From positions 15,857-79,856 of the forward strand of contig MHFR01000053.1 in NCBI GenBank assembly GCA_001804285.1: a stretch of DNA of 64,000 nucleotides. Reading direction: 5' to 3'. The stretch comes from Candidatus Danuiimicrobium aquiferis. GTDB taxonomy: Bacteria; Omnitrophota; Omnitrophia; Omnitrophales; Danuiimicrobiaceae. This document shows, in pieces, positions 58-41,850 of this stretch. Made by a program: the position numbers and the translations under genes. Position 1 is the stretch's first letter. Every line of letters begins with the position of its first letter. The notes beneath the pieces were generated by a model. The model made no database searches and was not told the origin of the DNA. It saw only the letters and a program-made list of their open reading frames with translations.

Positions 58-110
58 TAAAAAGGGGACAGGTCCTGCGTCACTTGAGTCAGGACCTGTT
101 CCTTTTTTCT
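58..110. terminator. Hairpin-A family palindrome (aaaaaggggacaggtcctg ... caggacctgttcctttttt), bidirectional intrinsic-terminator-like, downstream of aguA
   Basis: Roughly 17-bp inverted arms with a 12-nt loop, flanked by A-run and T-run so either strand gives a stem followed by a U-tract. It lies between the aguA stop (124) and the next gene start (40). Confidence 0.5.
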
Positions 111-123
111 TTGAGAACCGGTC

Positions 124-1422: not shown

Positions 1423-1476
1423 GAAAAAGGGAACAGGTCCAGACTCAAGTGACGCAGGACCTGTCCCCTTTTTTTT
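1423..1476. terminator. Hairpin-A family palindrome (gaaaaagggaacaggtcc ... ggacctgtcccctttttttt), terminator-like, immediately 3' of giant gene 1
   Basis: Inverted arms plus a T8 run. It sits 19 nt downstream of the TAA of the 13,117-aa ORF. Its loop is the approximate reverse complement of the loop in the copy at 58-110. Confidence 0.5.
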
Positions 1477-1494: not shown

Positions 1495-2050
1495 TTATGC
1501 GGCAGAACCGGTCAGCTGCTCAGAGCGGATACCTTGAGCGAGAACGTGAATCACAAGATCCAATGCGCTCAGCGCGTCCCGGCTTTCCACCTGAATACGG
1601 TCGTCATGCCGCCTGAGCCATTCAACGGTCTTCTTGGAAAGCGCAACGAGTGCCGCCGTGAAAAGCTGTGCGGCGGTCCCCGTCTCTTTCTCGCCGCGAT
1701 AGCTGAACGGGACTCCGTTCGCATCCTGCCCCGCGTCAAACATGAGGCCCTTGATGCCGGTTACCGCAGTCGCAATGGTAATCGCAGGGTCATTTCCGAA
1801 AAATGTTTCCGAGTTGGGAAGCATTTTATTCGTGAAAATAACCTGCATCTGTTTTCCGGTCACCGAAATAATTCTTCGCACCGGATCATCCTGATTCACC
1901 GGAATGTTATCCATCACCGGCTTCAGCGATGACGGCATTGAAATACGCGGAATAATATGAAGGTTTGAATTTGCCGCCTGGCTCGCGAAGTCATGCAATT
2001 TCCGGACCACCGATTCGGCCCTTGCAGCGGCAACTTTTCCCCCTCGCCGC
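1495..2050 (-). other. conserved C-terminal domain shared by all three giant proteins (gene 1 copy, most divergent)
   Basis: ...FTAALVALSKKTVEWLRR...LAQGIRSEQLTGSAA aligns with ...LLLAGMGLLSKKDIDG...KDALAKAA in gene 2 and ...LLAAAVVLLSKQEIAGL...EEAMKRAA in gene 3. Confidence 0.5.
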
Positions 2051-5000
2051 GACTGCGAGGACAGGTCGCGCGCTTCGGATGACATCATGGCTAAATCTTC
2101 TTCGCTGATTTTGTAATCAACCATTGTCACTTCTTTGATTGACTGAATGGCTTCGGCAAGGTCCGTCGCACGGGCGAGATTTTCTTCGGTAAACGGATCC
2201 GTAGAATCATTCATCCTGTTGATTTCACTCACAACCGCTTGCCGCAATATGGACAACGCTTCTTCGTAAGTCATTCCGGAATTTCTTAAAACTGCCAACG
2301 CTTTTGTAAAACCCGAAATGTCTGTTGCGTCCGGCGTGCGGAGGAAAACCCGGTCGATAATCTCGCTAAATTGAGTTCCGGGTTCCGAGTTTAAAGTTTC
2401 GAGTTTACCGAAAAAGGGGACAGGCAATCGCTCAACTTGAATCATATGCCTGTCCCCTTTTTGTTTGGAACCCGAAACTCGAGACCCGAAACTGTTTTCA
2501 TTGCGCACTTCCGATCTTCCTAAGTCATTATCCGACAACGGCTTAGCGCTCCATCCCAATTTCTGAAGCGCCGCCTCCGATTTTTCATCCTGAACCTTCC
2601 GGTACATCTCAACCAAACGGTCGGCGTTCGCCGGATTAAATTCAAGGAGCATCGCATTCCCTGCAGGACTCACATGAACATCCACCAATTCCCGGAGCCC
2701 GTCGAGCGGTTCATCGAATGTCGGAAGTGACATCACGTCCAGAATCCATTCAAGGCCTTTGACCAGGCTGAGAGGAGAAGGAAAAAGATTCCGGAAATTC
2801 TCGGAAGCTTGTTGAAATTGATCGAGAGGAATGTCATACAGCACAAAATGCGGCTGAAGTGAAAATTCAGGGAAGGCCCCAACCAAAGATTGATTCATGC
2901 TTTCAAGGCTTTGAAGCAATGCCTCCGGTGTCCGCAATTTCTTTCCTAATCCCCGGTAACGTTTCCCCACCAAAAATCCGTCGGGAGGAATCCGGCTGAC
3001 GAGTTTCGGCGCCCGGGCTTCGCGCAAAAGATCTTCCTTCACCAACTCAGCAAGTTTTTGAAGCACCCGGTTTCCGTTCTGATATCCAATGCCATCCTTT
3101 TTGCCGTCCCCGCTCTGAAGCCTATGATATGCGCGGCCGGCCGATTTCTTTTCTAAAATCGCGTGCTCCGCAAAATAATCCCGGACGGACAGCAACATGA
3201 GGTTGTTCATCCTTCCATGGGCTAAATGATGTTTAAACGTATCCATATCCAGCGTCTTCGTTAGGGGATCCGGGTGAGCGCGAAGCATCCCTTCTTCGGC
3301 CTGTTTCGCTAACTTTTTCTGTTCAAGCGCTTCTCTTAACTCAACCACTTTCTGACTGAAAGCCTCGGAGGATAACCGTTTGCCTTCGGGAACGATATTT
3401 CCGATCCATCCTATGGAAGAAAGGACATAATTTTGATTCCGGCCGTTTTGTTTTGCTTTTGAAAGCGCATCGTTCGCGAAGCGCAATCCCCATATATAGA
3501 ATTCATCCAGCCGGTCTTCGCGAAGCTTACCGGCCTCGTCGACCCAATAATTCGAACCGGAAAAGGGGACAGGCATATTACTCAAAAGAGAGCGATTGCC
3601 TGTCTCCTTTTCCATATCCGTCGTCTGCGTGACCAAATAATCAAGCACTTGCTTGGCGGAAACAGCGCCGAGAGAAATGGTGAGGATATTTTCAAACTCA
3701 ACTGCGAGCAACCGCCCGGACGGAAGTTTTAATTCGTTCATGAGTCGCGCAAGTTCGACGCGTTGAAAAAACGTGCTGTCAGGGGAAGATGTCATTCCCA
3801 CGGAAGTGGGAATCCAGCTGGATCCCCGCGTACGCGGGGATGACACTTCTGAGATTGCTTCGACAATATTCTGACCGCCATCTCGCAATGACACGCCGGG
3901 GCCTTGTTTCCTGACCAGCAAATTAAACCCATTTCCATGCCGGACCGCCGCGACGATATATTTCAATCCCATGGTTCGGATCATTTTCTGGAATTCCTGG
4001 ATGTCTTTTTCTTTGTAGCCTTTTAAATCAAGCCGGTAAATCGCATACCGGTTTTCAAATGCCTTTGTGTATAACCCGACCGGTTGAGAAACAAATTCAG
4101 ATCTTCCCATTTTGGGACCGGCAAACTCCAGCACCGCTTCGTCTCCGCCGACATAGCGATGGATCTGCCCTTGCATGACTTGATTCAGGATTTCCCGCGC
4201 TTCACGGTATAACGAGACATTCGCGATGATGACATCCGGCGACGGCTCGTTTCCAAGCGTTCCGAAAAAGCGTTTCCCGAGCGCATCATTCCGGGCACTT
4301 AATAGATCGGAATCGATCATTGAAAAATAAAATTGGTCAAGCGTACCGGCTTTTGCGTGCATTTTGAGTTTCTTAAGATGCTCGACTTCACCCTCCGCCT
4401 GTGATGTAAGCGGATCCGAGGATTCAGTGCGGACTTCAGCTCTGAATTGAGTTCCTAGTTCCGAGTTTAAAGTTTCGAGTTGATCTGTTTGTCCTAACCC
4501 GAAACTCGGAACTCGAAACTCTGAACTATTTTGCAGACGCACCTCTCCCCGTTTCCTTATTGGTTCTGTCACCCCACCATTGCGCATTCCCGGTGGAATA
4601 AACGCATCAACAACGCCGGCTTCCATGCCAATGTTCTGATAAAACCCGTGGTCCGGCTGAAGTGGAACGCGAAGCGTAACGACATTTTTCGGCGTCGCCG
4701 GCGCGAGATATCCTTCGTCCATTTCCCTGAAAAATAAATATTGCCAACCTGCCCCATTTTTCTGAACAAGCTTAAGAAAATTGGTTTCATTGGGATCAAC
4801 TGCTTGCAGTTCGCCTTGGGGATCCACCATGCCAAGCATTCTTAATGCCTCCCCGGCCAAAGCAAATTCAGGATAACGAAAGGATACCGGCGTCAGCATC
4901 CGATGCAAATCCCTCAGCGCTTCCACGGACCCCGCATACGCTTTCACGAAATTCATCACGCTCGGTTCGGCTGCTTCGCGCTTTTTTCCTCTTCCGTCCG

Positions 5001-8000
5001 GCCCTACATCATACTTTTCATCAATCGCTTTTTGAATGGCGCCAACTTCATTAAAGACGACGAGTACTTTTATATTCGCATGCACAAATTCTTCTATCCT
5101 CACCACTGGTTTCGCCAGCAAGCCCTCAATCAGTTTAATGCTTTCGCGCAAACTGGTAGTAAACCCCGAACTTACGCCGACTTTTAATTTACCGGCCCTT
5201 TCCCCCAAAGAAACAAGATTTCCACGGAGCTTGAGCAACTCTCTCTCGGGAGTCACAACCTGCTGCTTGAAATACGCAAAAAGCGCTTTCTCGGAAATCG
5301 CCGGATCGGCGGGCTCAAAGAGTTCGGAATCAACAGGAGCTTCTGCCGCCTTTTCCGTTTCAGAGAGGGAACCAAATCGCCGTTCGTAATTTCGCATCAC
5401 AAGTTCTTCCGCGATTTTCCAGTTGTCACGAAGCTTGAATAAAATGGTCCGCGCACGCGCGCGTTTTGCCCCGTCTTTCTTGAAAAATATGCCGATGAAA
5501 CGCCCCACCTGCGCGAATTCGCTTTCCGAAAGCCCAATGGTTTTGATCTGAAAAAATTCACGCGCTTGATTATACGCTTCACGAATAAAGCGATATTCGT
5601 CCAAACCAAGTACGTTAAACGCCGCATTAAACGAAGCCATCACCAACACTTGCCTCTTATCAGGACGAACCTGTAAACTCTCTTTCCCAATTTCCGCGGA
5701 CCGATAAAACCGGCTATACGATTCATTCAGGTTCTTCCTCAGAGCCGCTTTCCCGCTTTCAGATTTATCCAGGGCTTGATACATCGCAGGAATTTCCTGC
5801 TCTAAGTCTTTCAGAAAACGGTCAAATTGTTCTTCGGAAAAAGACAAGTCCAACGATCTCTGCTGGTTCGGCTGTTTGTATTTGCTGAGCAATTTGAAAA
5901 ATCTATCCTCCATGATAAAGACGCCTTTCGCCAATTCCACTCCGAAAGCCGGGGGAAACAATCCGGAAGGCTGCATGAGCTTCTCTGCGGGCGACCGCGA
6001 AAGAACAACACCGACCCCTCGCTGAATTTCTCCCAACTCGGGAATCTGCATCACTTGAATCAATTCCGGCGCAACAGGATTTTCCGACAAATATTGTTTT
6101 TCGGGCATCAATAAATAGGAATAGCCGGTATGTGCCATCAGCTCCGGACCCGAGAGGGGCTGGGGATACGTTTCAAGATTAACACGCAATCCGGTCTCTC
6201 GAATAGACCGGAAAAAACCGCGCTCCGGAGTGGCAATCAAATTGTCCTGCTTATCTCCGGAAACAATCCCGATCATCAGATGCGGCCCTTTCTCCGGGAC
6301 ATCGACTTTCAATAATACCGGTGCTGTATCAAACACCAACTCTTTCGAGAGTTCGCTGAGCGCGTTGTAAGCACCCACATATCTTTTATTGACCACAAGC
6401 ATTTGCATTCTCGGCATAAAACTTTCCGGTTTATACCGTTTGTTCATCGATTTGCGTGCGCTGGCGCCAAGTTTTCTCAGATTATTTTCCAAACGATTAA
6501 ATTCCGATAAAGCCACATCCCCGGAGCTTTGCGATCGTATACGATCAATCATCTCCGTGCTTTCTTTGTAAGACGCTCTGAGGCCATAACGGTCGTCTAA
6601 TCTTCCGGATTCCGGATAAATTCGCATTTCTTCACAGGCGTTTTTCAATTCTTCTACGGCTTTCGAAACCACTTCCAATTTGTCCTTGCTCACCGTGACG
6701 GACTGCGCAAAAAAGGCATCGATTGCCGTTCTTGCCTCGTCAGCATTTGCCGTGTCAAAAGTACTGCCTGCCGGAATTTTGGTCCGCACGGTGAAAACTC
6801 CGGCCGGAAATGAAAACGTTGGTTTTTCCCGTTTCGCGTCCGCAGCAGACGCCGCTTTAGCCTGTTCGAATGCTTTACGATTTAATACAAAAATATTTTT
6901 CGGCGAAATATCCGGAAGCGGAAGTTCATGCCCCATCACCAAAATTTGCCAACCCGGCGTCGCCTGAAACATTCCATCAAATCCGCTAAACCGGACCTGT
7001 TTCGATGAATCTTCAATATCGGTATAAACAAATGTTTCAAAATTCGCCCGGTAAATTTTCCCGGACGAATCAACAAGACCCATGATAAAGACCGGTTTAT
7101 CGGCTCCCAGGGTGGGGATTTCAAATCCGGGAGCACGGTACTTGATAAAAACGCTGGCGATGTGGTCTTGATACTGCCGGGTCAACGCATTATCTCCCGC
7201 CTGAAACAAATCGATGGCGCGATGATCCATAAACTGTTTGCTTTCAAATAACCACGCTGCTTCGCGGCGTGCTCCGGTCACATATTGATTCATCTGATCA
7301 AGCACTTGAATGATCTTGAAAAACGACGCATGCCCCTTTTGGTCGATCAGCTTCTGTAATGCGGCCGATGCGACCGCGAATTTTTGATCGAGAGAATCTG
7401 TAGCATTCGGATTATTTTTCCGGTGCCAGGCATTCATTTGCCCCATCGCGGTTTTTATAATTTCCAATGCGTTTTTGGGAACAGAAAAAGGCAATCCATA
7501 ATATGAATCAAATACCCTTTTCGCGACAACAGGAGCTGCGGGCGTTAAATAGTCAGAAGATTTTTCCGCTGCTTTATCTTTGTCCAATTCTAATCGCAAA
7601 TTGACACTTTGTTCAGACGCTTCAAGCCCGACGACAAAACCGATGGCTTGCATCATTTGGGCCGGTTCACTGAGCGAAATTTGCGTCACTTGAGAATCCG
7701 ACATGAAATAATCATTCCAAATGAGTGATAGCGAAGACATTCCGAGCGGCGTAGCTTCCCGATCGAACACTTGATGATCGTAAATAGAGGGACTCGCCCA
7801 TAAAATCGTGTGCATTTTCCCGTCATCAATAATTAAAAAGAGCGGCTCGGACTTTCCCTTCCCCTGCTTCGATCGCCAATAGACTAATTTTGCGACGGCA
7901 TTTTCCGGAACCTCGAGGGCGAGCGGACCGGTCAATTGTTTCGCATTCAACTCAACCACTTTATAAAAAACTTTTTGCTGTCCACGCGTTTTTGAAGAGA

Positions 8001-11000
8001 CCGTGTACGTTCTCACCTTTTCGACCTGATCAATTTGGAGCCTTTTGGCCGGTTTCTTCTCTGCCTCTTTCGCTTGAAAGGCTTCAAGAATATCGGCTCC
8101 CCACAAAGGATACCGGGAATCCGCCTCTCTTGATTGCGTGAGCCATATGGCAGAAAAAGCTTGTTGAAGCACCCCTCCGGCATCGTGTCCCGGTTCAAGG
8201 AAAGATTTCGCAACGGAGTCCACCACGTAAGCATACATCCCGGAAAAATTCAATATAGGCGCCGGCGCACCGGTCAAAAGTTCGAGTTTCATTTGGCGCA
8301 AGACTTCGTCGGAAGGCCTCGATAATCCGGCCAAAGCTTCATGCAATTTAGGTAAAATTTCTTCTTTCGTCACAAAAATTTTCTTCGGGGCTTTGGCCAT
8401 CATCTCTTTCACAGAGACATACCTCCCTGCAAGAACGTCTTTATTCAAAGCACCGGCTCCTTCCATATTACGGGCTAAATTAATTTGTTGCGCTATCTCC
8501 TCCGCCGTTTTGTTCTCTAATTGATCGAATAGCTGTCCTTGCTCCGGCGTCAGGCTTTCACGGGGAATCATTAAATTCAATAATGCGGCTGCGTCTTTGG
8601 CCCGGTCCGACAAAAGTACCAGAGGGCCTTTCGAAACACTCGCACCGATGGTTTCAAAAAAGACATTAATGGAATCCCAGAAATCAAATTCAAATGCCGG
8701 CGAAGTGGCAAAATATTCACGGATAATACTTTGATCCGTTTGAAATTTTTCGATCACAATCGATACAAATGCCAGGAGCGCAATGGCATCCGCTTCCCAC
8801 CGTTCGAGCAGCGTCCGTTGATCGGGAGAAATCTGTCCTTCGCGAATTAACTTTTGCAGATTCCGCACCGTTTTTTCCATGGTTAGGAATATTTCAATGT
8901 TTCCTTCAAAGCCTCCGGCCTCATCGTTTCTGTTGAGCACTTCAAAGATCGATATTTCCTGTAAATTGGTCTCGGCGCGCAAAGACGGATCGGCAACAAT
9001 CCGGTCCATGTGAGCCGCATGCATGGCCATCGGCGAACCGGTTTCCTTTAATTCGTCGACGGACTCTGAAATGGCCGTTTCGATCGCACCGATCGCCTGC
9101 GTGGCTTGCGTTTTTAATGTTTCAAAATCATTCGTCTCGCGGCCCGCAACTAATTTTCCGATCATGGCTTTGGATTTTGTATCAAAATTCAGGATATCAT
9201 CTTCTAATGTAGCTATCCGCGCCGGATCTAACGTTAACAAAGGATGAACCCGGGACTGTATGACGCGAAGTTTCGCATCCAAACTTGTTTTCGCTGCGGC
9301 AACACGATCTTGCAATTCGCGAGTCAGTTTGCGATTGAACTTCTGGGAAACCACTTGGGCGCGCTGGCTTTCAAATTCCCGCGCTTTGTCTTCCGACACA
9401 ATCCACTGCTCCGAAATATTTTTGCTCTTGTCGCCGATCGCTTCATTTAATTTCGCGACAAATTGAACCTTGGCGTCCCGGCTTAATAATCCCATAACAC
9501 CCACCGGCAGGTTCTCCATACGGACTCTTCCGCCTTCAATATCAGCTGCCAATTCTTTAATCCACGCAAGATGATCAATCCCTTTGCTGCGTTCTTTTGC
9601 GGCTTGCGCAGCAGTCCGGAAGCGTTCGGGAAACTTCGTAAACGTATTCGCATTTGCCGCCACCAACGTGATTTCAGAAACTTGTCCAAAATACGGAATC
9701 TCGACCGGCTGCTTGAACCGGAGCATGATCCGCTTCAGCCAGTATTGTTCGTTTTCAAGCACGACTTCAATATTTCCGAAATCCGTTTGCCTGCGAAGCG
9801 CCGCGGGGACAGTTTGATTGGTATTCAATCCGGGAATTATTTCCAAGCCCAGATTAAAGGCCTGATTAATTTCATTCCACCACACAAGCTGCTCGGCCGA
9901 CCGGACGGGAATCCGAAGGACCGACCGGGGATTTCCTTGCGAACCGGCTGCGGATCTCAACTGTTCGGGAAGCGTGACCAAAAGTTTGTCAAAAGCTTCG
10001 TCCTTGGACGTGATCGAATCAAGCTCCATTACCCGGATGTTGTCAAAAGAAAACCATTCAAGAAAAATTTTGATGAACCGGTCCGCATCGTGATGGAAAA
10101 AACCCGCCTCTTTGATGAATGATAAAACACCAAAAAGTGTACGACCGATTTCCCCTTCGCTGTGCGAATCAATCCATGAGTCCGTAAACATTTTCCGCAC
10201 CATTTCAATCAATAAATCACGTCCGGCATAGTCACGGGAGATATGTTGATCGAGGAAACGGTTCAGGTCTTCCGTGAAAAGTTTTGCGTTAAATTCCATT
10301 TGCTGGAAAGCGGCGTCCATCCCGCTCTGAGCGGAGCCGGGCAATGCGAGCGCGATGGTCCGTAAACTTCTTGCGATATAAGGAACCAAATCAGGTTGCG
10401 CCTTGGCCAGCGCCATGAGCTCATCGAAAGAGGCCCGGACTTCGCTGCGCTGTTCTTCCCGAATTTTTTCGGCAAGTTGATCGACCTTTTCTAAACCATT
10501 ACGATTCTTCGGCGAAGCCAATAAATTAATCGCGGCCTGGTCCAGCTCATCACCGGCCGAAATTAATATGTGTTTTAATTTTTTCGTAAGCCGGTCCACC
10601 TTTTCTCCGCTTAAAAACCATAAAACGTCGACAGCCGTTCGAATGCCCGAAGCAGGCTCCCCGGACGCGGCGAACCGGCTTAATCTTTCCTGGATTGTTT
10701 TTTCAATTGAATCCCGAAATCCGGAAAAACCTTTTTCACTGTAGATCGATCTCAGAAAAATAAGTTCGGCTGCTATCGGCGAACCATCTTCATTCTGCTC
10801 AATCGCTTTTCGAACGTCCCGAATCACTACGATGCCAACCCCGGCGCTGAGCGGTTCGAGCACTTCGTCAACATACCGGTGGACCGTTTCTTCTTCGGTA
10901 AAAAGATGCGCAAAAACCCTCACTTCTTCAAAAAGTTTCCGGACCTGCTCGAATGAAATGTCCGGCTTAGCCGCAAGATCATGAACATACCGGTACATCT

Positions 11001-14000
11001 CTTTCAGCGTCAGGGAATCGACCCCGCTATAAAGCTTGAACCAGTCAACCTTATACCGGTCTTCCGGATGCTCCAGATAATGCTTGAAAAATTCCATTCT
11101 TAGTTTTGACAAATCATCCCCAAACCACGACCGGTCTCCTCTAAACACGGCGTTAGAGGTCGGCCCCTTTTCCGAAAAGCTGAAGAACGAAATCAAAAGC
11201 AGTTGAGCACTCATTGATAATTCTGCGTCATCAGACCAGATGCTTTGATAGACCAAATCCGCGAAATGCGCCCCTTCTTCAAATACAAAAGCGGGGATAT
11301 TGTCTTTTGTCGCTTCCCGGGAGAACATTTTTTGTTGCAGCAACGAAACCGTTTGTCCGAGCTCTACCGTGTAGAACGACAGCAATCCCTCGCCCACCGT
11401 ACGAATGACGTTGTTCAGCGTTGCATCCGATTGTGCAAAAAAATCATCGGCGCGAATGATCGCGTCTGCTTCTTTCAACCGCGCCGGTAAAGAAGAGCTC
11501 CGGGTATCCGGCACGAGCGCCGCGACAAAATGTTCGTATTGCGGATGGCGAGTCCCGACCGTCTCGGCAAATCTAATTTTCGGATCGCCGGCTGTCCGCC
11601 GGATCGCTAACATACACAAAAACTTCAGATAAACCTGCACATTCTCTTTGACGTACATCTCATCAAAATATTTTCTGATTTTTTGGAACGCTTTATCTCC
11701 GAAGTTTTTGTTGATGGCGGCAACAAACGGGACTGAAATTTTATAATTGATGTTTCCGGCATGCCGGTCCACCAGATGCACATGAAACAACACTAAATAT
11801 TCGAGTAACGGATTCGGCGCGCGGGAAATATATTCGATGATCGCGTCCGCGGCATCACGCGGCCCCAGGTCCGACCTGATAAACGCACGGGCTCTTTCCA
11901 CCGAAGCGTCAATATCTCCAAAGAATTCGGAACGGTCCGCTGTGGCCCCGCGATAAATCGTCGCCATGATACTGCGTTCGGCGAGCAAATGTTCCGGGAC
12001 CGGTTTTCCTTGTTGGTCCGCAATTAAAAATTCATTCACTTCCGCGTTTAAATCTAAAATTCCGTTTCCGCTTTTCCCCAGATCTCCGAATTCATTAATG
12101 ATATATTGAACGACGGCCGGCTTTTCGCGCGGGCCCTCGGCTGCTTCCGGTATCCCGGAAGAAGTCATGCTTTCGGCAGGAATGTGGAGCCGTAATCCCC
12201 TGGGATCCTGAATCACCGCTCCGCCTTTTCGTCTTGTTTCCGCTTCAAGTTCATCACGCGGGTCCTGCATGAATGAACCCGGCCCCATTTCAAAGACTTT
12301 CACATCCCGCGGGAAACCCCACCGATCCGCCAAAGCAGGATCGATTTTTCCGATCACGCGTCCGCCTTGACCCATATTGGGACCGTCAGCCGGTGTCTCC
12401 GATACCGGTTCTGGCCCTAAAGGACCGCTTTGCGGGAGAACCGGAGTTGTTTCCCCGCTCGACGCAGCAACAGTTCTTGTATACTGATCATAATTTGCAA
12501 CAGCCAACTCGTTAATAGCGCGAGCAACTGCCTCGATTTCCTCGACAAAAACTTCAAGTTGAACGTGCAACGCCGGATCAACATTCGGATTATCGGCCCG
12601 CGCAGAACCAACGCTTAGCTGCAAGGATTCCCACTCGGAAAGCGAAAGAAATCTCCCCTTTCTGATCTTTGCATATAACGATTCCTGGCCTAATGCTTTA
12701 AAAAGAGGGCCGACAGAACGCCGTCTTACCACTTCAAAGAAAGCAAGGCCACGAGAAAACTTTTGCAAACTTTGTTCAAGAAATTGCGGCTGTCCTCTCA
12801 CCATCGTCTCGGCAAACAGAATTCGTTCTCTCCCGCTATTGAGCGCCTGATTTAACTTATTCCTTCCGCTTTCGGTATTTTGACCGATATTTTTGAAATA
12901 TTGTGCATGGGTAACCGGCGACAAATCATTGAGCGCAACTAAAAACTGGTGATATTCTCTTTGCGAAAGATTCCGGTTTTCATATAGTCGTGTTTTCTTA
13001 AAAATCCCGAGATTCGTCAGCGCGGTATTCACCGCATCGTTCATGATAAAGAAACCGCGGCTCAACTCAACTCCTAAAGCAGGATCTAAATGGCCGGAGG
13101 GTTGAAATGGTGATAAATCAATTTTCGGAAGAATATGACTTACTGCAGCCGGTAAGGTTGTTTCGGGTGTCATTGCGAGGCGAGAATCTGCTGGTTGCCG
13201 CGGCAATCCCTGCTCTAAGATTGCTTCGTTCGCCTCCGGCGAACTCGCAATGACGGGCGTGGCCGGTGCTTCAGGCTCAGCTTCTTCGGCTTCTATAATA
13301 GTCTCTGCTCCCGATGCGGCAACTGAAGGAGCTATCGGTTCAGCTATGGATTCTGGGAGGACTGGCACATCAACGCCGGACCTTGGCGCTTGGGCAACCC
13401 GTCTTCGCATGGCCAAAGTTCTTGTTTCTTCTTCAGGATAAATTTCGCGGGGCAATATTTCTTTCAATAGAAGCAACGACTCCTCGATCAACCCGCGAAT
13501 TTCGTCAAATATTTTTTCATGCTCGGGCAAATTCGCCCTAATCCATTCGCCGTCAGGAATCGCACCACGAAGCCCGACCAACCTTTTCACCAACCGGACA
13601 TATTGCTCGTTGATGTATCTGGCTTTCGTCTGTTTTGTGTGTTCCGCAACACGGTTTTTTGTACTCCGGACAAAATCCCGCACCGTTTCCGGCTGGGTTC
13701 GAAGAAACCCGTGCAATTCCTGCGTGGTCAATTTGGATTTGACGGTCTTTCTGGTTACGATTGATTCGGCGTGAATTTTTTCCCCGAGCTTTTTTCTCCA
13801 CTCGTCTAATGCGGGAACCGTCAATTCATTGATCCGCAGCCTTTCAAATTGGCCTACCAATTCTTTTCTGCTCCAGGATGAAACCACAGCGTCCTCCGGT
13901 AACACTTCCGCTAAAAATTGATTGATCTCGACGAACCGGTAATCTTTCCCTTTCACGTATCCCGGCAAACTGAAATCTTCCAGCTCCTCGCCATTCAAAA

Positions 14001-17000
14001 CAATCAGCGTGACCGGTTGTGCGGGATCGAAAAGGTCGGGATGTAATTCTTTGAGCAATGTATATTTAATAATGGCTTGCCCGATATCCGCAATGTCCGA
14101 ACCCAGCTTTGCGTCATAAATTCCCCGGTTCCATATATAGTCGGGAGCGCGATATTCCGACAAAAGCGGGTCGGACGCCACAAATCCGTCATAATCAAAG
14201 CGGCCCTGGCTCACGTGATGAAAAACAAGCGCAACCAATCGTTCGAACACATCTCCCTTCAGCTGCGCGTAATCCTTGGGTTTCCGCTCCGCCGTGCTTG
14301 CGGTTCGCTTCGCCGGCGTGTCTTTCTCCGTTGTGGTCGACGCAATCGCCATACTCCACTCTTCGGGTTGTTCCGAAAGCTTACCCATTTTGCGAATGAC
14401 GATCGCTCCGACAGAATCCGCATTCTTTTTCACTTCCGAAACAGATAGGTTCTGGGCCACGGCCGGCGAATCTTCGCCGAGCAGCGCGGAACCATTTCGC
14501 GGGACATAGATCTGTAAACCAAAACTATTCGTATCGGCATCGTAAAACGGAACAAGGTAATATTCGAGATGCCTGTATTTTGCTAAACCCGAAAACCGGA
14601 CAGGAGAAATAGATTCTTCCTCACCTCTTTGAATTTTCAACACATAAGCCACATCCTCCAACCCTCGCTGATTGACGGTCACGGCCATTTCCGGCTGCGC
14701 AGAACGGATTCCCGCTAACCATTCTTTATACTCTTGGGGCAAATAGCCTTGAGACATGTCTAATGCATAAGTTTTCTTGACCGGTTTCGGCCGTGCGGCT
14801 GGCTTCGCGCTCTTTTCAATAATACCCTTCCCCCATTCGGCCATCAGCCGCGGAAGTCCCATCCCGAGGTGTTCGGCTATAAATTGAAGCGTCTCCATCG
14901 CCCCTGTAAACATACTACGTAATTCATCGGTGCTCGGTTCGTTTGCTAAGGGTTCGGGTTCAAGCCGGACTTCTTCCAAAACCGCTTCTTCGGGCGCCGA
15001 GACAACCAGCCCCAGCCCTTGCTCCAAAAATTCGCGCGTTGCCGCTTCCGTTTGAACCGGATAAGTGCCGAGGAATTTTCCGCCGGAAATTAAATTTGTT
15101 TTGTCGGGAGTTCTTCGAATAGCTTGTGCAATGGATTGCAATTTTTCATGATCTTTCAGCGTTGTCTCATTCTTTTTTTCGCTGACCGACAGGATATAAA
15201 TATGTTTGCTGCCGGGCGAAACATAATACACAACGCGAAGGAATCCCTTCGTTCCGCTCCCCAATGGAAAATCTCGAAGTGGATTTAAGTCCGCAAACTT
15301 CGGCGTCTCGCTGCTTCGTCCTTCGAGCAATGTCACCAATTTGGCCCGAATGTCAGGCCCGTAGGCTTGTGCCCGCGCCGTTAATTCGCGAAACGCCTGG
15401 TCCGTCAGAACAAGGCTCCGGTCCGTTTCAATCCTCACCCGGAGCGGGGAAATTTCAAGAAGCTTGATGTGTCCCTTCCGCAATTGACCGTTTGCGCGTA
15501 AATGTTCCAATCCCGGAGGTAAGTCGTCAAAATGGCGCGTACGGATTTCGAACCGGTCATTTCTGAAATCGTTTTCCAAAGGCCCGGCTGCCCGTTCGAA
15601 AGCCGCCGTTAAACTGTGCTCCGTCAATTCAGGACTTACCTGGATCACCCGGACATTCCGGTTGTGCCTTAAAAGTAAACGCATGGCCGATGAAATATTT
15701 TCCGGCAAATTTTGCCAGGCACCGGTTCCGACGCTATATTTTGTACTCGTCAAATAAACGGTTTGACTACCCTGATTTTTTTCCCGGATAAAATGAACCA
15801 GCGGTACCGTGGCAGTACGGGCTTCGGACCTGAATTGAGTTCCGAGTTCCGAGTTTAAAGTTCCGAGTTTACCGAAAAAGGGGACAGGCATATGACTCAA
15901 GTTGAGCGATTGCCTGTCCCCTTTTTGTTTGCTGTCATTCCCGCGGAAGCGGGAATCCAGCTGGATCCCCGTTTGCACGGGGATGACACCCTTGTTAGCT
16001 TTAAAGTTGCGAACTTCCGCCCGACCGGCACCCCCCAAACGTTGGGCACGATCAAACACACCCACGTTATGTTTTGCCCATCGCCTGATTTCAGGATCCG
16101 TCGAATTTAAAAACGTTTCCGAGTCCCAAATATTAATCAAAATGTCCTGCGCACGCGAAATCCCGACATTCCGGCGTTTCTTCCCGTCCACCGGGTCCGC
16201 CAGAAATCCGACCGATCCGCCCTTGTTTGAACGGACCCACGATAAAATGACTGCTTTGTATTCCGATCCGATCGACGAATCAACGGTGATCACTTTAAAA
16301 GCGCCGCTTGACACATCCGCCGAAGGAACAAATGAATTCCCAAGGTCAAGATCACGGAGAAATTGCGTAGCCATTTCCTTGGTCGGCTGTGCGATAAAGC
16401 GCCGGACATCCGCATCAAATAATTTCATTTCTTCCTGAATTATTTTTTCCCGCTCGGGATAAGCTTTTTGACGAAAAGTCGGATCTTCACGGCTGAACTC
16501 CTGGAAAAGATTTTCATGCATCCGGAAACGGACAAATTCTGATTGGAATATCAAATTCAACGCAGCGGCAGATTCTGCGGAAATCGCCGGCGGTCCTTGC
16601 GCAGAAATAACAGATGAAAACGCTTCATGAATTTTCGAAAAATGAAGCAACGCATCCGAAATCATGTCAACCTGCCTCTGATAAGGCGAAATGACGGCAA
16701 TGTCCTTCGCCGCGACACCCTGTCGATTGATAAGCCGGTTCACCCAGCTCACAGCTAAGTTAATTTCGCCGCGGTTAAAGCGGCCCATTTCATCCACTTG
16801 CCCGGTCTTCTCTTCCCGGTAAATTCCTCTTGTATCTTCTTCAATGACGGTACCGTCGACATCACGCCCGGCAATTAATTTCCCATGATAAAAATAATTA
16901 ATGAGATCCACGATCAAACGGCCGGACCGGCGTTGAATATCGAAAAAATAAAAGGGCGGCTGCGTCACGCGAAAAACTTCCGCATCCCGGGTGAAAAATA

Positions 17001-20000
17001 TATTAATCATGTTCTCAAGCAGAGAAATTTTAAATCGCCCCAATTTTGCGGGATCGAAGATTTTCGAAAGCTGCCGTGTCCCAAACGGGGTTTGAATGTC
17101 CCGTATCTTCCAGATCAGAAACTCGTTCATGGCAAATTTAATGTCGTCGTCCCCCAATCCATAGGCCGGCAATTGTTCGTGATCTCCGACAATCAGTACT
17201 TTTTGCCGACCGCTGGACGACCCCTTAAATTTATAAACGGGGAGGAGCGTTTCAGGAACCGTTCCGCGGCTCGCCTCATCAATAATAATCACATCGGCAT
17301 TCCATAACTGGGGCCTCTTTTGAAGGTCCGAGTCAAGCGGCATTCCGTTTGTCGTTCCCAAAGTCAATGTCCCTTTTCCGGCCGCGCGCAAACGAACTAA
17401 TGAATCCAATTTCTCTTCTTTCACATTCCACAAAAGCTCCAACACTTTCTGGTCAATCGGCTCTTCGTTATTTCCAACGCGGGCAATCGGTCCTTGCCCG
17501 TCTTTAAGAAGTTCCCGGTCCATCAATTTGAGTGCCACATTGTCAACGCCGGGATTGGTTTGTGACAAAATCAGCACTTTCCGTCCCAATTTTAAAAATA
17601 ATTCCGCAAGCCAAACAATCGCTGTTGTTTTTCCGGTTCCGGGGGGCCCTTGATATAACGCGATCGGAACGGAACTCATCAGACCTTCGATAACACCCGC
17701 CTGTTGAGCTTTATCAAGCTGCTGTTTTTCGGCTTGTTCCTTGGCTTCAACCGTCGTTTCAATTAATGCGTGTTCATCGCTCACCCGCCCGTTTTGTGCA
17801 GGATCCGAAATAAACAAAGAAAGTCCCAGCAACAAATCAAACCGGGGATCTCCCGTCGTTGCTTTGGAAACTTTTTCGGAAATACCACTCGCTCCCAATT
17901 TTTTTAAATCAATAGCGATATGTCCGTGTGCTGTCCGCCCGAGATTTGAAACTACATCATCCAGCATATCTTTTTGATTCACCCACGATGAATTCTTGAT
18001 CCGGATGAGAGCTCCTCCCTGCTTCAATGCATCTTCAAGCTCGGATTTGATATAATCGTAACCTGCGGACACCTTCGGCAGTTCAAATTCCAGAGAATCG
18101 GTCCCGGTCTGCTTCACGCGGAAAAAGGGCTGTAACGCCTCGGTTTTCCCTTTCGGCTTAATCCGGAATGTATCGCCCCGCCAAACAAATCCTTTCAATT
18201 GTTCTGCCGGAATACCATGCGCAATAAACCCATTATGCGTAAACTCGATGGTTTGGAATGTAAATTCAATCGCGGCAGACGGTGGGAGCCCTTTGGCTCG
18301 TCTCTCCCGTTCATCGCGTTTGTTTTCCGCTTCGACCATGGCCCCAATCATAAAATCATCGTCAATCAATTGCGGCATCCAGTAATTCGCCATGGCGTGT
18401 GAAATCACAATCCTTGCGAGTTCCAAATAATTCTCGGACGCCGGATAATCCGCATTCAACTCAAACACGAGCCGGCTCCATTGAAAGGCTTTTGTATAAA
18501 GCCCGTCATTCAAGGACCTCAACGCTTCCTCTAAAATGCTTTGATACGCTTGGTCCCGATGCTCGGGAAATGTAGCAAGTTTCTGAACATTTTCAAAGAA
18601 AGAGGCAATCGGTCCGTCTTTTTTAATTTGTTCTTGATATTGACGGACCAGGCTTCTCGATTTTTCGATTTGTTCAAATAAATTTTCGACATCCGTCCGG
18701 TTCCGCGCAAATGGCCAAGATGTCTCCGCGACGGCAACAGCCGCCTGAAGCTTACGTTCCGCTTCTAAATACCGGCTTTCGTCCATCAATCCCGAAACCT
18801 CGTCAAGGCGGCTCGCAAATGCTTCAAACGCTCTCACCAATCCTTTAATGACGACGTCTCCCGCCGGTCCGGCCTGAAGTTCTGTTAAAATCCCGATTCC
18901 CTCCGGTCCTTTTCCCTGCTGAACCAAGGTTCGCGCTTGTTGAATTTTTTCGATATTCGAACGGATTCGCGCGGCTTCGGGATTCTCCGGATTTACACCC
19001 ATCAACTCATCAATCGTTTTAAGCGCTTCTTCAAAATTCAAATGTTTATATTGATCGCGCATTTGTTGAAGAAGACCCTTCGCCTTCGCAACCCGTTCGG
19101 AAAGTTGAGCGATCGCTGTTTGAACCTCTGGCTCCGTCGCCCGAGGATTGATCTGACCCAATAACCGGCCGGCGTCATCATAACGGCCCTGATCGTAAAA
19201 ATCGCGCGCGATTCGAACCAGATCCGGGCCGCTCAGATCATGCATCCATTTTTTCAAAATCGCTTCCACCTTTTGCCGGATCGCCGAAGCCATCTCCGGC
19301 CGCCTTGATACACCGTCCAAAAATAAATAATCTCCGGAATTGGGCGTAACAGCAGCTTCGTATTCGGCCAATATTTTACTTTCCCGCGAAACGGATTGTT
19401 GCCCCGGCTGTTCGGTCAGTGTTTCGATATGCGATCGAATCATGGTTCTCAAAAACTGCGGATTGATTATTTTGATGTACCACAGAATTTGCTCGATTTC
19501 CCACTCTGCGAGCGGCTCATCCGGCGCAGACAACAATAAACTCGCCCATAAATTGAGAATACGCTGAATCTGCTCCGCGGGAAGCATTAAAACAAAACTG
19601 GCAACCGATGACCTCATCGTCTCCGGATGGTCGGATGAATCAAAATACCGCTTTAATTTTTTCCTTATTTCACTCACGGGAAGCAAGGTTTCGCGAATTG
19701 TCCGGAGCGCGTCTTCTTTCCGCTGATTTAAATCATACGCAACGGCAAGCATGGGCGAAATATATATACTGCGATAATAGTCCGCCGGATATTCCTGCTG
19801 CGTGGCGACCAGAACCGATTCGAGCGCCTTGTCATTTTCCCCCTGCACCAGATGGGAAAAACCTTTCGCCATTTGAAACGGGACTTGAGCGCCCCGGCTT
19901 TTTGATTCCTTAGTCAACCGTTCATATTGGGGGAATAATCGCTCCAGTGCCGCCTTCATTTTTTCAGCTTCGGACAACCATCCATTTGAGCGCGCAATAT

Positions 20001-23000
20001 GGTAAGCCATAATCAAAAATTCAACACTGCGGATATATTGCCCGGAAGAACCTTCTTTGATTTTTTCCGGTTTTTCCGCAATCGGAATCATTAATTTAAC
20101 GAATGTTCCAAATTCCTCCAAATCCCAAGCCAGCCCGGCCACTTGCATTAAATCCTGAGCATCGTTTTCAGAAAGAACAAAATCAAGAGAACGATTTAGA
20201 AATTCCGTTAACGCGCGTCTCCCCTCCTCATCCGACTGGAGCTTTGCATAGAACAACCCAAGCGAAATATAAGGCAGTGAATCTATCAAATCCCGGAAAG
20301 GCACTTTATTTTTTGCAGGCAGCCAATCTGGTTTTTTTTCTACAAGTTCTTTGACCCGGCTAAACCAATGATCCAAATATTGAGCGCTCTCCTTTGTTTT
20401 TCCCGTCATCATCGCACCCATGGAAGCCATCGCCGTCATTTGAAAGAAAGAATCATTTTTCAAAAAAACTTTTCGCGCTGAACTTACATCTTCTGTTTTT
20501 CCGCTCCCTGTTGCTTTTTTAACTAATTCGGCTGCTTTCCTCTGGTATTCCTGATGCAATCCTTCCACCGATTGCCAATCGCCCGCATCAGTAAAAACCT
20601 TGGTTAATTTCATCAATAGTTGCAGACTTTGTGCATCCGCAGAAAATATTTTAATTTTTTTAAGCAATGTTCCCCGTTCAGCTGCAATAAATTCTCTGAG
20701 TCCCTCGACCATCCGAACCTGCAACCAATTGAGCCGTCCGGATATTTCGAGAAAAGAGTCCAAAGCAACCACCCCCATTAAATAGAAAACCGGATGCATA
20801 TGAGTTGCCCCCATCATCTCGCTCATCTTCTGTTCCAGGCTGCTAATTTGTGAAAAAAACACTTTGGCGTCATAATCCGCCCGAATAAATTCTCCGGTGA
20901 GCCACTCCGTAAACTTAATTTGCCGGCGCTCGTGAAGCCTCATCGTTGAGATGGGCCCGGCAATAATTGAATCGTGGTACATGTCGTCATAGCTGACTGT
21001 CCTGGACGCAATTTCTTTGGCTTTCGCCTGAAGCCGCGCATACGTAACTTTGTTTTTTGCGACTCCCATCATTCGGTGAATCCGCCTCAAAGCACTCAAC
21101 CTGTTTTCGTCTTCTTCACCCGCTAAAAGAAATTCCAATTTTTCCCAGTCTTCCTCGCTCATGGTTTTTTGATTCAAGACCTCCCATGTCTGATTCATCA
21201 AATCACTCATTTCAATGTCTGTATACCGGTTAGCAAATTTATACAAGGCGAGGAATACAGATTTTTCTTTCGGCCATTCGTTCAACTTCCCCAAAATGGC
21301 TGACACCAAATCAGAAATCTCATCGCCGTGCCCGGACCGGTTGAGTAACGCAAGTTGATTCAAATGAACCTGCTGATCAATCTCCGGAAGCCGCAGCAAG
21401 ACTTCCAAAAACAATTTAAATATCTGATGCGCCTGTTCGTGACTCCCTGTAAGTTGATATAGACGCGCCAAATCAAACAGGACATACATCAGGAAAATAT
21501 TTTCTTTGGTGTTTCGATATTTTTCTGCAAGTGCGCTTAAAATATTGATCGCTTTCTGATACTCTTTCTGATACAGGGAAAGAGACGCGAAGAAATAAAA
21601 CCGCCAATCCAACGGGTCTGTGTCGCCCAAATCGTCCGTCAGCATTCGGAAAGCCAAAACATCTTCACGAACAATATCCGTTGCCTTGGCAAAAAATGAA
21701 ACCGCGCTTTGGTCCGCCGTATCCTCGTTTAGCAGCTTTGTCGCCAACATCCGCAAAGCCGCAAAATGAATCGTTTTGACGATCGGAAGACTATTTTTTT
21801 CTCCCACTAGCGGAGTCGTGATCTCAATCGTTTTGACCAACTCTTCATCACCGGCCAGCAATAAAAATACTGCCTTCTCAGATAGCAATCTTTCCTGAAT
21901 TAATTTTTTAGATTCCTTATCTTTTCGAAAAAATGATGACCGCTCCACTAAAACCAGGGCTTGATCAAGCCATTTTATTGTTTGGGTGATTTCATCGCTT
22001 TGAAGCGGCAGATTAAATTTTCGCAAGACTTCCGCAAAATCAAGGGTGGCAAAAGCGCGCCGCTCTTCCAGGAAGTCAGGCTCTCCAAGCAACATTTCAA
22101 GTTCCACCCGCATTTTATCGTACCGTTTAAGGTCCCTGAAAATATCCACCAGCAGCAAACGCCGGCCGATCAACAATTGAGGCTGATTCTGAAATACAAT
22201 CAAGGTTTCATACGTCATATGAATGAGCTCTTCATAATTTCCCTGAATCCTTAAAATAGCCTCGGCCATATAGTAATAAAGAGGCAGTTCCCTGCTGATA
22301 ATATTTTCCTGCGAAGAGAGTCTCACTCTAGGGTCATGCATCTTTCCAAGTGCAAGACGGGCCGGTTTTATTCGCTTTTTCAATTCATCGAGAATCAGAT
22401 TGAACTTGGGCTCAACATCGGCGAAATGAATATCGGGCTGATCGAGTCTGAACTGATGAGCCAGTTTAAGCCGCTTTAAGTCTTCTACAAGTTTCTGAAT
22501 CAAAGCGTCACTGGGGATTTTATCTTGTTGATATTTTTGCAAGGCCACCAAAAAAGAACCCGCGTCCACTGGTTCGGATGCGCGGGCTTCGGACCTCAAT
22601 TGAGTTTCGAGTTTACCGAAAAAGGGGACAGGCAATCGCTCAACTTGAGTCATATGCCTGTCCCCTTTTTGTTTGTCATTCCCGCGGAAGCGGGAATCCA
22701 GCTGGATCCCCGTTTGCACGGGGATGACACCCTTGTTAGCTTTAAAATTGCGCATTTCCGATCTTCCCGGAGCTCCGAGATATTTAAAGATAGAAGAAAT
22801 TTGATCTTTGAGATGATTGACTCGCCCGTTTTCCACAGATCCCTCAAGTTCTGTTACCGCAACGATTACTTTTCGAAGACCGCTCTGCAACCGTTGATAA
22901 TAACGCTCACGGATTTCCGTAGAAAAATAAACGCGTTGAATTTCCGCAAGCCGTGAACGGAACGACTCCAATCCCAGGGGAAGAATTTGAACCAGTGGCG

Positions 23001-40848: not shown

Positions 40849-40888
40849 GGAACGTATTGAAAAACCGCCTTTTTAAGGGATTTTAGTA

Positions 40889-40917
40889 AGTATACCCGGC
40901 CTTTCCCTAAAATGCAA
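40889..40917 (-). promoter_or_regulatory. sigma70-like promoter for giant gene 1: TTGCAT-N17-TATACT
   Basis: On the minus strand: ttgcat tttagggaaaggccggg tatact. The -10 lies about 40 nt upstream of the GTG start. The same architecture is found upstream of gene 2. Confidence 0.45.
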
Positions 40918-40977
40918 CTTTTATGAACAATTTATCGACAGCGTAAGTTGTTTGAATTAAATAAGTTATGAATTAAT

Positions 40978-41140: not shown

Positions 41141-41175
41141 TGCTTCAAACTACTAAATTTATCCGCATCTTTTGG

Positions 41176-41303: not shown

Positions 41304-41850
41304 TTACGCGGCTTTGGCGAGAGCATCCTTCGCGGCTTCTTCGAGAACCAAGCGGAGAGTCATGGCAAAGAATTGATTGAATGCATTGGCATTCACCCCG
41401 CGGAAAATATTTTGTTCAACTTGTTGAATCCCGTCGATATCCTTTTTACTCAATAAACCCATTCCCGCGAGTAACAAACCAACCGGCGTTACACGATCAA
41501 GACCTTGATATGCGATTTTCCCTCCGCTCACATACGCATCTGCAGCCAATTTAGCCGCGTGTGCATTCGCCGTCTGAACCTGGTCTGTAATCACCACATT
41601 GGCATCTCGAGACGCATTCATCGGAAATAGTGAAATCTGATAAGTCTTGATATCTCCTTTTGTCCGGGCGCGGTTAAATTCCCGTTCAATCGGTACCCGG
41701 TAATCACGCTGAATACCGGGCGAAATAAATTCAAAACGAATATTAGAATTTAGAATGGCAATATTAGCAACTGTCTTTGCTAATTCACTAAAATCTTCCC
41801 GAAACTTGTCTGTCGTCTTATCATCGGATGTTATATAACCGGCGGGAATA
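41304..41850 (-). other. conserved C-terminal domain (gene 2 copy)
   Basis: NSNIRFEFISPGIQ...ANVVITDQVQTANAHAAKLAAD...VGLLLAGMGLLSKKDIDGIQ...LVLEEAAKDALAKAA. Confidence 0.5.

What the first reader, a model, noticed from the sequence alone, without database searches (positions are those of the whole stretch)
2409..2462. Intragenic hairpin-A copies are terminator-like (stem plus U-tract on the mRNA strand) inside a 39-kb gene
Each in-frame hairpin-A copy (for example 2409-2462, 3559-3613, 15874-15926, 22618-22670, 40009-40062, 40555-40608, and the roughly 6 copies in gene 3) is flanked by A5 and T5 runs. The coding-strand transcript therefore contains a stable stem followed by UUUUU, more than ten times per gene. 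Either these attenuate transcription and give nested truncated products, or full-length expression needs processive antitermination. Slowing the ribosome to aid co-translational folding is another possibility.
Basis: inference. Interest (0 to 1): 0.55.

Follow-up and report, generated by a model that had tools for sequence, protein, structure and literature searches.

The report
Terminator-like palindromic repeats translated inside giant genes
Short hairpin repeats that look like this bacterium's own transcription stop signals sit in frame inside its giant genes. They behave like selfish DNA that slipped into tolerant protein loops, so there is no sign yet that they control expression of the giant genes.

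Summary
The hairpins are real. A family with the core GGGGACAG…CTGTCCCC, flanked by A and T runs, gives 17 arm matches against 0.06 expected by chance. Thirteen copies lie in frame inside three giant ORFs of an Omnitrophota groundwater genome: 13,117 aa, 4,767 aa and at least 2,743 aa. They fold strongly (-21 to -38 kcal/mol for the elements alone).

They do resemble terminators. Other members of the family sit just after stop codons and between convergent genes.

Some details in the finding are overstated. Only 4 in-gene copies have U5; the rest have U4C or GU4. Gene 1 holds 8-9 copies, not more than ten.

Alignments with a paralogue and five homologues show that the copies are lineage-specific 17-18 codon insertions in variable loops. 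They occur in both orientations and all three reading frames, and some are nested in other repeats. In related contigs the same family is in frame in ValRS, a MiaB-like gene and an RlmI-like gene.

The best reading is a Rickettsia-RPE-like palindromic element that happens to look like a terminator, filtered by selection so that the frame stays open. Attenuation or antitermination is untested and seems unlikely to be their purpose. In-gene copies cluster near a hugely enriched R[SA]E[AV]R peptide motif, which may mark module boundaries.

The parts
1495..40848 (-). Giant ORF g1, 13,117 aa, multi-enzyme type (methyltransferase, SF1 helicase, TPR). Host of 8-9 hairpin copies.
   Evidence: The same gene is called in an independent assembly.
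41304..55607 (-). Giant ORF g2, 4,767 aa. Its N-terminal 770 aa are 39% identical to g1, and it serves as the 'empty-site' comparator.
55765..63996 (-). Giant ORF g3, at least 2,743 aa. It probably continues beyond the window end. Host of 5 copies.
2411..2462 (-). Hairpin A, in frame in g1 (peptide KGDRHMIQVERLPVPF). A5/T5 flanks; RNA tail U5CGG. Nested in the loop of an S-type palindromic repeat (2359-2500).
3560..3612 (-). Hairpin A, in frame in g1 (EKETGNRSLLSNMPVPF). A4/T4 flanks; tail U4CCGG.
15875..15926 (-). Hairpin A, in frame in g1. Its loop is in the opposite orientation to the copies at 2411 and 22619. Tail U5CGG. The RSEAR motif lies 15 aa downstream.
22619..22670 (-). Hairpin A, in frame in g1. 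With its flanks it is 99% identical to 2395-2467. Tail U5CGG.
40010..40062 (-). Hairpin A, in frame in g1 (EKGTGSSDKMSQLPVPF). A g1-specific insertion in the conserved N-terminal domain. Tail U4CUUUUCUCC.
40556..40608 (-). Hairpin A, in frame in g1 (EKGTGNGSLLSHMPVPFS, 18 codons). A g1-specific insertion near the N-terminus.
56828..56880 (-). Hairpin A, in frame in g3 (KKGTGIVQQSKQLPVPF). It starts 4 aa after an RAEAR motif. Tail U5CGA.
34254..34305 (-). Hairpin B (GGTTCTG arms), in frame in g1, starting 4 aa after an RSEAR motif. Tail GU4GG.
39861..39912 (-). Hairpin B, in frame in g1 (KEKGTGSGSAESEPVPF). It lies in a variable loop where g2 carries a different repeat-derived insert.
58845..58896 (-). 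Hairpin B, in frame in g3.
62214..62265 (-). Hairpin B, in frame in g3.
59685..59744 (-). Variant hairpin with the same outer arms, a different inner stem and 24 perfect pairs. In frame in g3.
60989..61029 (-). Variant hairpin (GGGGACAGCGCCCT...AGGGCGCTGTCCCC), in frame in g3.
1425..1476 (-). Intergenic family member (type B), 19 nt after the g1 stop codon. Presumed terminator of g1 (A8, stem, U5).
60..111 (-). Intergenic family member (type B), 13 nt after the stop of the PAD_porph (agmatine-deiminase-like) gene at 124-1260.
38687..38767 (-). Degenerate half of a family hairpin joined to a GEG-type palindromic repeat. Together they form a g1-specific insert (GGPHPIPLPEGEGRGEGDLQVDHRLVPF).

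Best explanation
The hairpins are copies of a small (51-54 nt) palindromic repeat family of this Omnitrophota lineage. At gene ends these repeats look like, and probably act as, bidirectional intrinsic terminators.

Copies have also landed inside coding sequence. Only insertions that add a whole number of codons, carry no stop codon in the frame being read, and fall in tolerant surface loops or inter-module linkers survive. These are translated as 17-18 residue loops such as EKGTG-x8-PVPFS. This is the behaviour known from Rickettsia palindromic elements.

Giant genes collect many copies because they offer much linker sequence, especially around the recurrent R[SA]E[AV]R motif.

The insertions, their in-frame status and their terminator-like shape are shown. 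It is inferred that their termination activity inside translated genes is weak or masked, and that they have no dedicated regulatory role. The way they spread is unknown.
For: Family and structure:
- The family is non-random (17 matches against 0.06 expected).
- Stems are kept by compensatory changes across subfamilies: 91% of cells are paired, 45 cells carry double changes, and 0 of 500 shuffles reach that.
- Loops occur in both orientations.
- Three reading frames are used: KGTG, KGDR and KRGQ.

Empty sites:
- All four repeat-derived inserts examined in the g1 N-terminal domain (three family hairpins and the degenerate half-hairpin/GEG composite) are gaps in g2 and in five Omnitrophota homologues.
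- S-type repeats exist with and without hairpin A in their loop.
- Copies at 2395-2467 and 22603-22675 are 99% identical, which points to recent spread.

Ordinary genes of related contigs:
- ValRS in L166 carries the insert, and it is absent from an 85%-identical homologue. Another homologue has a different repeat in the same loop.
- A MiaB-like gene and an RlmI-like gene also carry it in frame.
- It is in frame in other giant ORFs too: L123, L136, L153/L160/L181 and L171.

Terminator positions:
- Family members lie just after stop codons and between convergent genes.

U-tracts:
- In-frame copies have poorer U-tracts than intergenic ones: 5.0 against 5.7 U in the first 8 nt, p = 0.005; mean T-run 4.1 against 4.6, p = 0.075.

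Published experiment:
- In E. coli, a translating ribosome represses an intrinsic terminator placed late in a coding region (PMC4824070).
Against: No expression data exist, so real termination at the in-gene copies cannot be excluded. They are as stable as the presumed true terminators of the same family, and four of them have the same U5 tail.

The sense strand is 54-55% purine. That is as high as in Bacillus subtilis, where such bias is linked to RNA polymerase outrunning ribosomes (PMC13323073). If that applies here, ribosomes would not mask the hairpins.

The clustering near R[SA]E[AV]R motifs (7 of 13 within 150 nt, p about 0.002) would also fit a role at module boundaries.

No target-site duplication, transposase or RAYT partner was found, so mobility is inferred only from the distribution of copies.
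Confidence: 0.7

Rival explanations
1. Programmed attenuation. The in-gene hairpins terminate a fraction of transcripts at each copy. This gives a 5'-to-3' gradient of nested transcripts, and full-length expression needs an antitermination factor.
For: The same family sits at real terminator positions. The stems are stable, -21 to -38 kcal/mol, followed by U4-5. Copies cluster near R[SA]E[AV]R motifs, which may be module boundaries. The purine-rich sense strand hints at uncoupled transcription.
Against: The copies are lineage-specific and not positionally conserved between g1, g2, g3 or their homologues. They occur in ValRS and MiaB-like genes, where attenuation would be costly. U-tracts are short and are poorer in frame than between genes. 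Transcripts ending without a stop codon would send the products to tmRNA tagging (established knowledge). No NusG/LoaP-like gene lies in the 74 kb examined.
Confidence: 0.12
2. RNA-level protective or insulating elements. The hairpins would stabilise segments of a very long mRNA against 3'-to-5' exonucleases, as REP elements do. Being symmetrical, they could also stop antisense transcription running into the giant genes.
For: The hairpins are strong, and the stems are maintained by compensatory changes. They are equally terminator-like on both strands. A 39-kb mRNA is unusually exposed to decay (inference).
Against: The same arguments from lineage specificity and from presence in ordinary genes apply. 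Covariation between repeat subfamilies is also expected if the palindrome is needed only for the element's own propagation.
Confidence: 0.1
3. Protein-level module. The encoded EKGTG...PVPFS loop would be a selected linker or recognition peptide, and the hairpin would be incidental.
For: The end peptides EKGTG and PVPF(S) recur in many in-frame copies in the window and in related contigs. The palindrome gives the same end peptides in either orientation (sequence logic).
Against: Three different frames are read: KGTG, KGDR and KRGQ. The middle residues are not conserved. The identical DNA occurs between genes. Pairing, not coding, is what covaries.
Confidence: 0.05

Closest known systems
Rickettsia palindromic elements (RPE; Ogata et al. 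2000 and 2002, as summarised in PMC10969869)
   Same: A repeated palindromic DNA inserted in frame into unrelated protein-coding genes, including housekeeping enzymes. The copies are translated as extra loops, are absent from orthologues, and leave the proteins intact.
   Different: This element is much shorter (51-54 nt against about 100-150 bp) and comes from a different phylum (Omnitrophota). There is no sequence relationship. RPEs encode a conserved peptide, whereas here all three frames are used. This family also has A/T-flanked GC stems that look like terminators, and it sits at gene 3' ends.
[quoted passage not shown] 2011, cited in PMC10969869)
   Same: A dispersed repeat family whose unit looks like an intrinsic terminator. 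It is found clustered with, and nested in, other small repeats.
   Different: In the review read here (PMC10969869), SPRITE is mentioned only in intergenic clusters with other repeats, and no in-frame copies are described. Here about half of the type-A copies examined are translated in frame.
REP/REPIN elements with RAYT transposases
   Same: Short, imperfect palindromes in many copies, often at 3' ends of genes, where they can stabilise mRNA or terminate transcription.
   Different: REPs are extragenic by definition and are tied to a RAYT gene. No RAYT was seen, though the genome was not available, and these copies are intragenic.
Omnitrophota giant genes ('Archaeovorins' and multi-enzyme giants; bioRxiv 10.1101/2023.11.21.568195 and 10.64898/2026.06.07.730766)
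   Same: The host genes are of this kind: ORFs of 10-40 kb and more, with an N-terminal membrane anchor and scattered enzyme domains. Whether they are processed at the RNA or the protein level is an open question.
   Different: Neither paper mentions terminators, hairpins or palindromes (0 occurrences each). In-frame repeat insertions in these genes appear not to have been described.

Membership tests
Intrinsic (Rho-independent) terminator | A GC-rich stem-loop that is stable in the nascent RNA | tested here: met
   Energies are -21 to -38 kcal/mol for the elements alone and -28 to -43 with flanks; z-scores are -5 to -8.
Intrinsic (Rho-independent) terminator | A U-rich tract of about 7-9 nt directly after the stem | tested here: inconclusive
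   Four in-gene copies have U5 followed by C. Five have U4 followed by C or A. Three have G then U4. One has UGUUUC. The presumed true terminators of the family have U5 to U8.
Intrinsic (Rho-independent) terminator | A position downstream of a stop codon, at the end of a transcription unit | tested here: not met
   The 13 copies in question are inside open reading frames. Other family members do meet this criterion.
Intrinsic (Rho-independent) terminator | RNA 3' ends produced at the site | not testable with these tools
   No transcript data are available.
In-frame protein-coding palindromic repeats (RPE-like behaviour) | A dispersed, repeated palindromic sequence | tested here: met
In-frame protein-coding palindromic repeats (RPE-like behaviour) | Copies lie inside ORFs, add whole codons and introduce no stop codon | tested here: met
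   The inserts are 17-18 codons and the host ORFs are intact.
In-frame protein-coding palindromic repeats (RPE-like behaviour) | The insert is absent from orthologues or paralogues at the same site | tested here: met
   g1 compared with g2 and five homologues. ValRS of L166 compared with P0008 and others.
Rickettsia RPE families proper | Sequence homology to RPE-1 to RPE-10, and one conserved encoded peptide per family | tested here: not met
   The unit is only 51-54 nt and three frames are read. Homology to RPE sequences was not searched directly, and the host phylum differs.
MITE | Terminal inverted repeats plus target-site duplications, and a cognate transposase | tested here: inconclusive
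   The whole unit is one palindrome. No duplication is visible when filled and empty S-repeat sites are compared. No transposase lies in the window. The genome was not available.
REP/RAYT | Extragenic location and an associated RAYT gene | tested here: not met
   Thirteen of 15 window copies are intragenic. The RAYT criterion is not testable without the genome.

The most novel reading that the evidence does not exclude
The hairpins are not passive passengers. Together with the R[SA]E[AV]R motifs they would punctuate a polyprotein-like giant gene. Partial termination, or RNA-end protection, at hairpins placed next to protease sites would set a graded stoichiometry of modules. Co-translational cleavage would rescue the completed upstream modules from transcripts that lack a stop codon.
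Probability: 0.08. Interest if true: 0.8.

Novelty: new variant of a known kind. Interest (0 to 1): 0.45.

Why it matters
Three things would follow if this holds.

First, in-frame 'selfish' palindromes, long treated as a curiosity of Rickettsia, would also be common in Omnitrophota. They occur there in housekeeping enzymes as well as in giant genes.

Second, part of the unannotated 'dark' sequence of giant proteins would be translated repeat DNA rather than unknown domains. That matters for domain annotation and for structure prediction of these proteins.

Third, it gives a clean natural test of how well terminator-shaped RNA is tolerated inside translated genes of an uncultured phylum, and so whether transcription and translation are coupled there.

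The accompanying R[SA]E[AV]R motif offers concrete candidate cleavage or boundary sites. The giant-gene literature says these are missing.

Tried and rejected
- Built-in terminator scan. It allows only loops of 3-8 nt and so misses these hairpins. It found 22 sites against 28.6 expected, which is uninformative.
- Rfam, on the window and on 12 related loci. No RNA family covers the hairpins.
- Genome-collection scan for the outer arms. Most of those hits are intergenic. Many carry a different inner stem (GCTACTTTTT), so they say little about this family's biology.
- 'Fossil terminators left by gene fusion'. Rejected, because the copies lie inside conserved single domains and in ValRS.
- 'The giant ORF is an artefact'. 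Rejected, because homologues exist at 39-48% identity, Pfam domains are present, and identical gene calls appear in independent assemblies.
- Strain polymorphism at hairpin sites. Four independent assemblies are 100% identical across 2411 and 3560. The only difference is an unrelated 114-nt in-frame duplication.
- Tandem-repeat origin. Rejected.
- Frameshift-signal idea (A-run plus hairpin). Considered from the sequence only. The A-run is part of the stem and is not a canonical slippery heptamer, so it was not pursued.

Full report
**What the window is.** The minus strand carries a 378-aa PAD_porph (agmatine-deiminase-like) gene at 124-1260 and three very long ORFs. These are g1 (1495-40848, 13,117 aa), g2 (41304-55607, 4,767 aa) and g3 (55765-63996, at least 2,743 aa, apparently continuing past the window end). 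An exact-protein look-up finds the same locus in several groundwater metagenome assemblies, including a Rifle aquifer scaffold, and g1 is called there as the same 13,117-aa gene. All named homologues of the g1 N-terminus are Candidatus Omnitrophica/Omnitrophota. The giant proteins carry scattered enzyme domains: methyltransferase, SF1 helicase, TPR and NAGPA. They belong to the multi-enzyme Omnitrophota giants described in two preprints.

**The observation.** At 2411-2462 the sequence is AAAAAGGGGACAGGCA, then 20 nt, then TGCCTGTCCCCTTTTT, a perfect 16-bp inverted repeat. The arm with up to 2 mismatches occurs 17 times in the window against 0.06 expected. A core-based search finds 15 full hairpins.
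- Seven are type A (GGCA inner arm, loop of about 20 nt).
- Six are type B (GGTTCTG or GGTCCTG inner arm).
- Two are variants with other inner stems.

Thirteen are inside g1 or g3 and leave the ORFs open. Two are intergenic.

Folding the mRNA strand gives -28 to -43 kcal/mol with flanks (z-scores -5 to -8) and -21 to -38 kcal/mol for the bare elements.

Two details are overstated. Only four in-gene copies have U5. The others have U4 followed by C or A, or G followed by U4, and one has UGUUUC. And g1 holds 8-9 copies, not more than ten.

**They do look like this genome's terminators.** The two intergenic copies lie 19 nt after the g1 stop and 13 nt after the stop of the PAD gene. In the 10 kb of ordinary genes downstream (locus L115), further members lie between convergent genes: one between a 67-aa gene and an opposing gene, and one at the 3' end of the aldolase gene.

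**They are insertions of a repeat, not built-in features of the genes.**
- The g1 N-terminal 880 aa aligns with g2 (39% identity) and with five Omnitrophota homologues. Every hairpin-encoded peptide there is a gap in all the others: EKGTGNGSLLSHMPVPFS, EEKGTGSSDKMSQLPVPFS, KEKGTGSGSAESEPVPFS, and a degenerate copy fused to a GEG-type repeat. The inserts sit in variable loops between conserved blocks.
- Type-A loops occur in both orientations.
- Copies are read in three different frames (KGTG, KGDR in the window; KRGQ in related contigs), so no peptide is conserved.
- Hairpin A is nested in the loop of another palindromic repeat (S type). That repeat also exists 'empty' at 4435, 27205, 32040 and 48818.
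- Two copies with their flanks are 99% identical.
- Across subfamilies the inner stems differ completely yet stay complementary: 91% of cells are paired, 45 cells carry double changes, and 0 of 500 shuffles reach that. The A and T runs covary as pairs, so the unit is a symmetrical palindrome.

**The phenomenon is not specific to giant genes.** A metagenome scan for type-A hairpins returned 66 loci.
- True type-A relatives lie in frame in other giant ORFs: L123, L136 and the L153/L160/L181 homologue of g1/g2. A copy with the same outer arms but a different loop lies in frame in L171.
- They also lie in frame in ordinary enzymes. One is a 969-aa ValRS (L166), with the insert at aa 236-252 inside the catalytic domain. 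Others are a MiaB-like radical-SAM enzyme and an RlmI-like methyltransferase.
- The nearest ValRS homologue (85% identical, Omnitrophica) lacks the insert. Another homologue carries a different repeat-derived peptide in the same loop.

An efficient terminator inside valS would be hard to tolerate. That argues the copies terminate weakly in a translated context.

Across all collected loci, 23 in-frame copies have poorer U-tracts than 116 intergenic ones. They average 5.0 against 5.7 U in the first 8 nt (p = 0.005) and a mean T-run of 4.1 against 4.6 (p = 0.075). This comparison mixes taxa, and the search pattern forced at least three T, so it is only suggestive.

**Mechanism proposed.**
- Shown: a 51-54 nt palindromic repeat family occupies gene ends, where it has the form and position of bidirectional intrinsic terminators. 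It also occupies in-frame sites in loops and linkers.
- Inferred: insertions that break the frame or bring a stop codon are lost, and most copies are open in only one or two of the three sense frames. Survivors are translated as short loops.
- Inferred: termination inside genes is low, either because ribosomes follow the polymerase closely or because the U-tracts are short. Ribosome repression of an intrinsic terminator placed late in a coding region has been measured in E. coli (PMC4824070).
- Caveat: the sense strand is 54-55% purine. This is similar to B. subtilis genes, where such bias accompanies 'runaway' transcription ahead of ribosomes (PMC13323073).

**An association worth noting.** The pentapeptide R[SA]E[AV]R occurs 38 times in g1-g3 against 0.18 expected. 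It uses all six Arg codons, so it is a protein-level motif. Seven of 13 in-gene hairpins lie within 150 nt of one (p about 0.002). The simplest reading is that these motifs mark inter-module linkers where insertions are tolerated. A bolder reading is that hairpins and cleavage sites act together as punctuation. That cannot be excluded, but I rate it at about 8%.

**Comparison with known systems.** The behaviour matches Rickettsia palindromic elements: in-frame, translated, absent from orthologues (PMC10969869). The elements are unrelated in sequence and size, and no single peptide is conserved here. The terminator-like form recalls the pneumococcal SPRITE repeat, which the review read here mentions only in intergenic clusters and not in frame. 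REP/RAYT and MITE membership could not be established: there is no target-site duplication, no transposase in view, and most copies are intragenic. No Rfam family matches. The two Omnitrophota giant-gene papers do not mention terminators, hairpins or palindromes.

**Verdict.** The most likely explanation is an RPE-like, terminator-shaped selfish repeat, tolerated in frame. This is a new variant of a known kind and is moderately interesting. Transcript 3'-end mapping would settle whether it also attenuates giant-gene expression.

Noticed in passing
g1-g3, e.g. window ~34326, 22593, 15828, 2079, 57591, 56904: The pentapeptide R[SA]E[AV]R occurs 38 times in the three giant proteins against 0.18 expected. 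Its codons are heterogeneous, so it is a protein-level motif, and it is also visible in homologues (for example PRAEAR in P0001). It is a candidate for module boundaries or protease cleavage sites of the polyprotein, which the giant-gene literature says are unknown.
   Followed up: partly
loci L001-L114 (for example L008:1773-1819, L016:54-100, L063:1061-1109, L068:797-834): A near-identical long hairpin, AAAAGGGGACAGGCTACTTTTT...AAAAAGTAGCCTGTCCCCTTTT, recurs in MAGs and genomes of many phyla: Desulfotomaculum, Aminicenantes, Myxococcaceae, Planctomycetia, Elusimicrobia, Sulfurovum, Omnitrophota and Actinomycetota. It is mostly intergenic and matches no Rfam family. It is unexplained why the inner stem, which the search did not require, is shared across phyla.
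   Followed up: partly
window 4435-4527, 27199-27290, 32044-32152, 48828-48920; also 2359-2500, 15823-15870, 22583-22618: A second in-frame palindromic repeat ('S', with arms built from GAGTTTCGAGTT units, translated as ...LETLNSE...). It exists with and without hairpin A nested in its loop.
   Followed up: partly
window 3790-3845, 15933-15988, 22674-22729, 24315-24368, 57509-57562: A third in-frame repeat, a double hairpin (TGTCATTCCCGCGGAAGCGGGAATCCAGCTGGATCCCCG...CGGGGATGACA), translated as ...VIPAKAGIQLD..FRGDD. Related peptides appear as inserts in homologues (P0003) and in a YjeF_N gene of L140.
   Followed up: no
window 38723-38767, and g2 around aa 290-330 (window ~54600-54750): GEG-type repeats (translated PLPEGEGRGEG / SPLMGEGRDGGE...LILPHKGGGD) are inserted in frame in g1 and g2. 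A similar peptide fills the ValRS loop of homologue P0009 at the very site where L166 carries hairpin A, so the same loops act as insertion hot spots for different repeat families.
   Followed up: partly
window 8334-8365, compared with L116:2814-2927: One assembly (the Rifle ANAN16 scaffold) has an extra in-frame 114 nt (38 aa) bounded by a 32-nt direct repeat. This is strain-level length variation inside g1. In that assembly the gene is called as only 6,307 aa, so the ORF may be interrupted further upstream there.
   Followed up: partly
window 40849-40990 and 55608-55764: The regions upstream of g1 and g2 share a similar AT-rich motif (…AACAACTTACG…ATAA…), likely a common promoter. g2 and g3 are not followed by a family hairpin, and g2 is followed by a different 22-nt inverted repeat (41174-41280).
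   Followed up: no
whole window, minus (sense) strand: Sense-strand purine content is 54.4-55.3% in all four genes. This is as high as reported for B. subtilis genes, where it is attributed to Rho avoidance under uncoupled ('runaway') transcription.
   Followed up: partly
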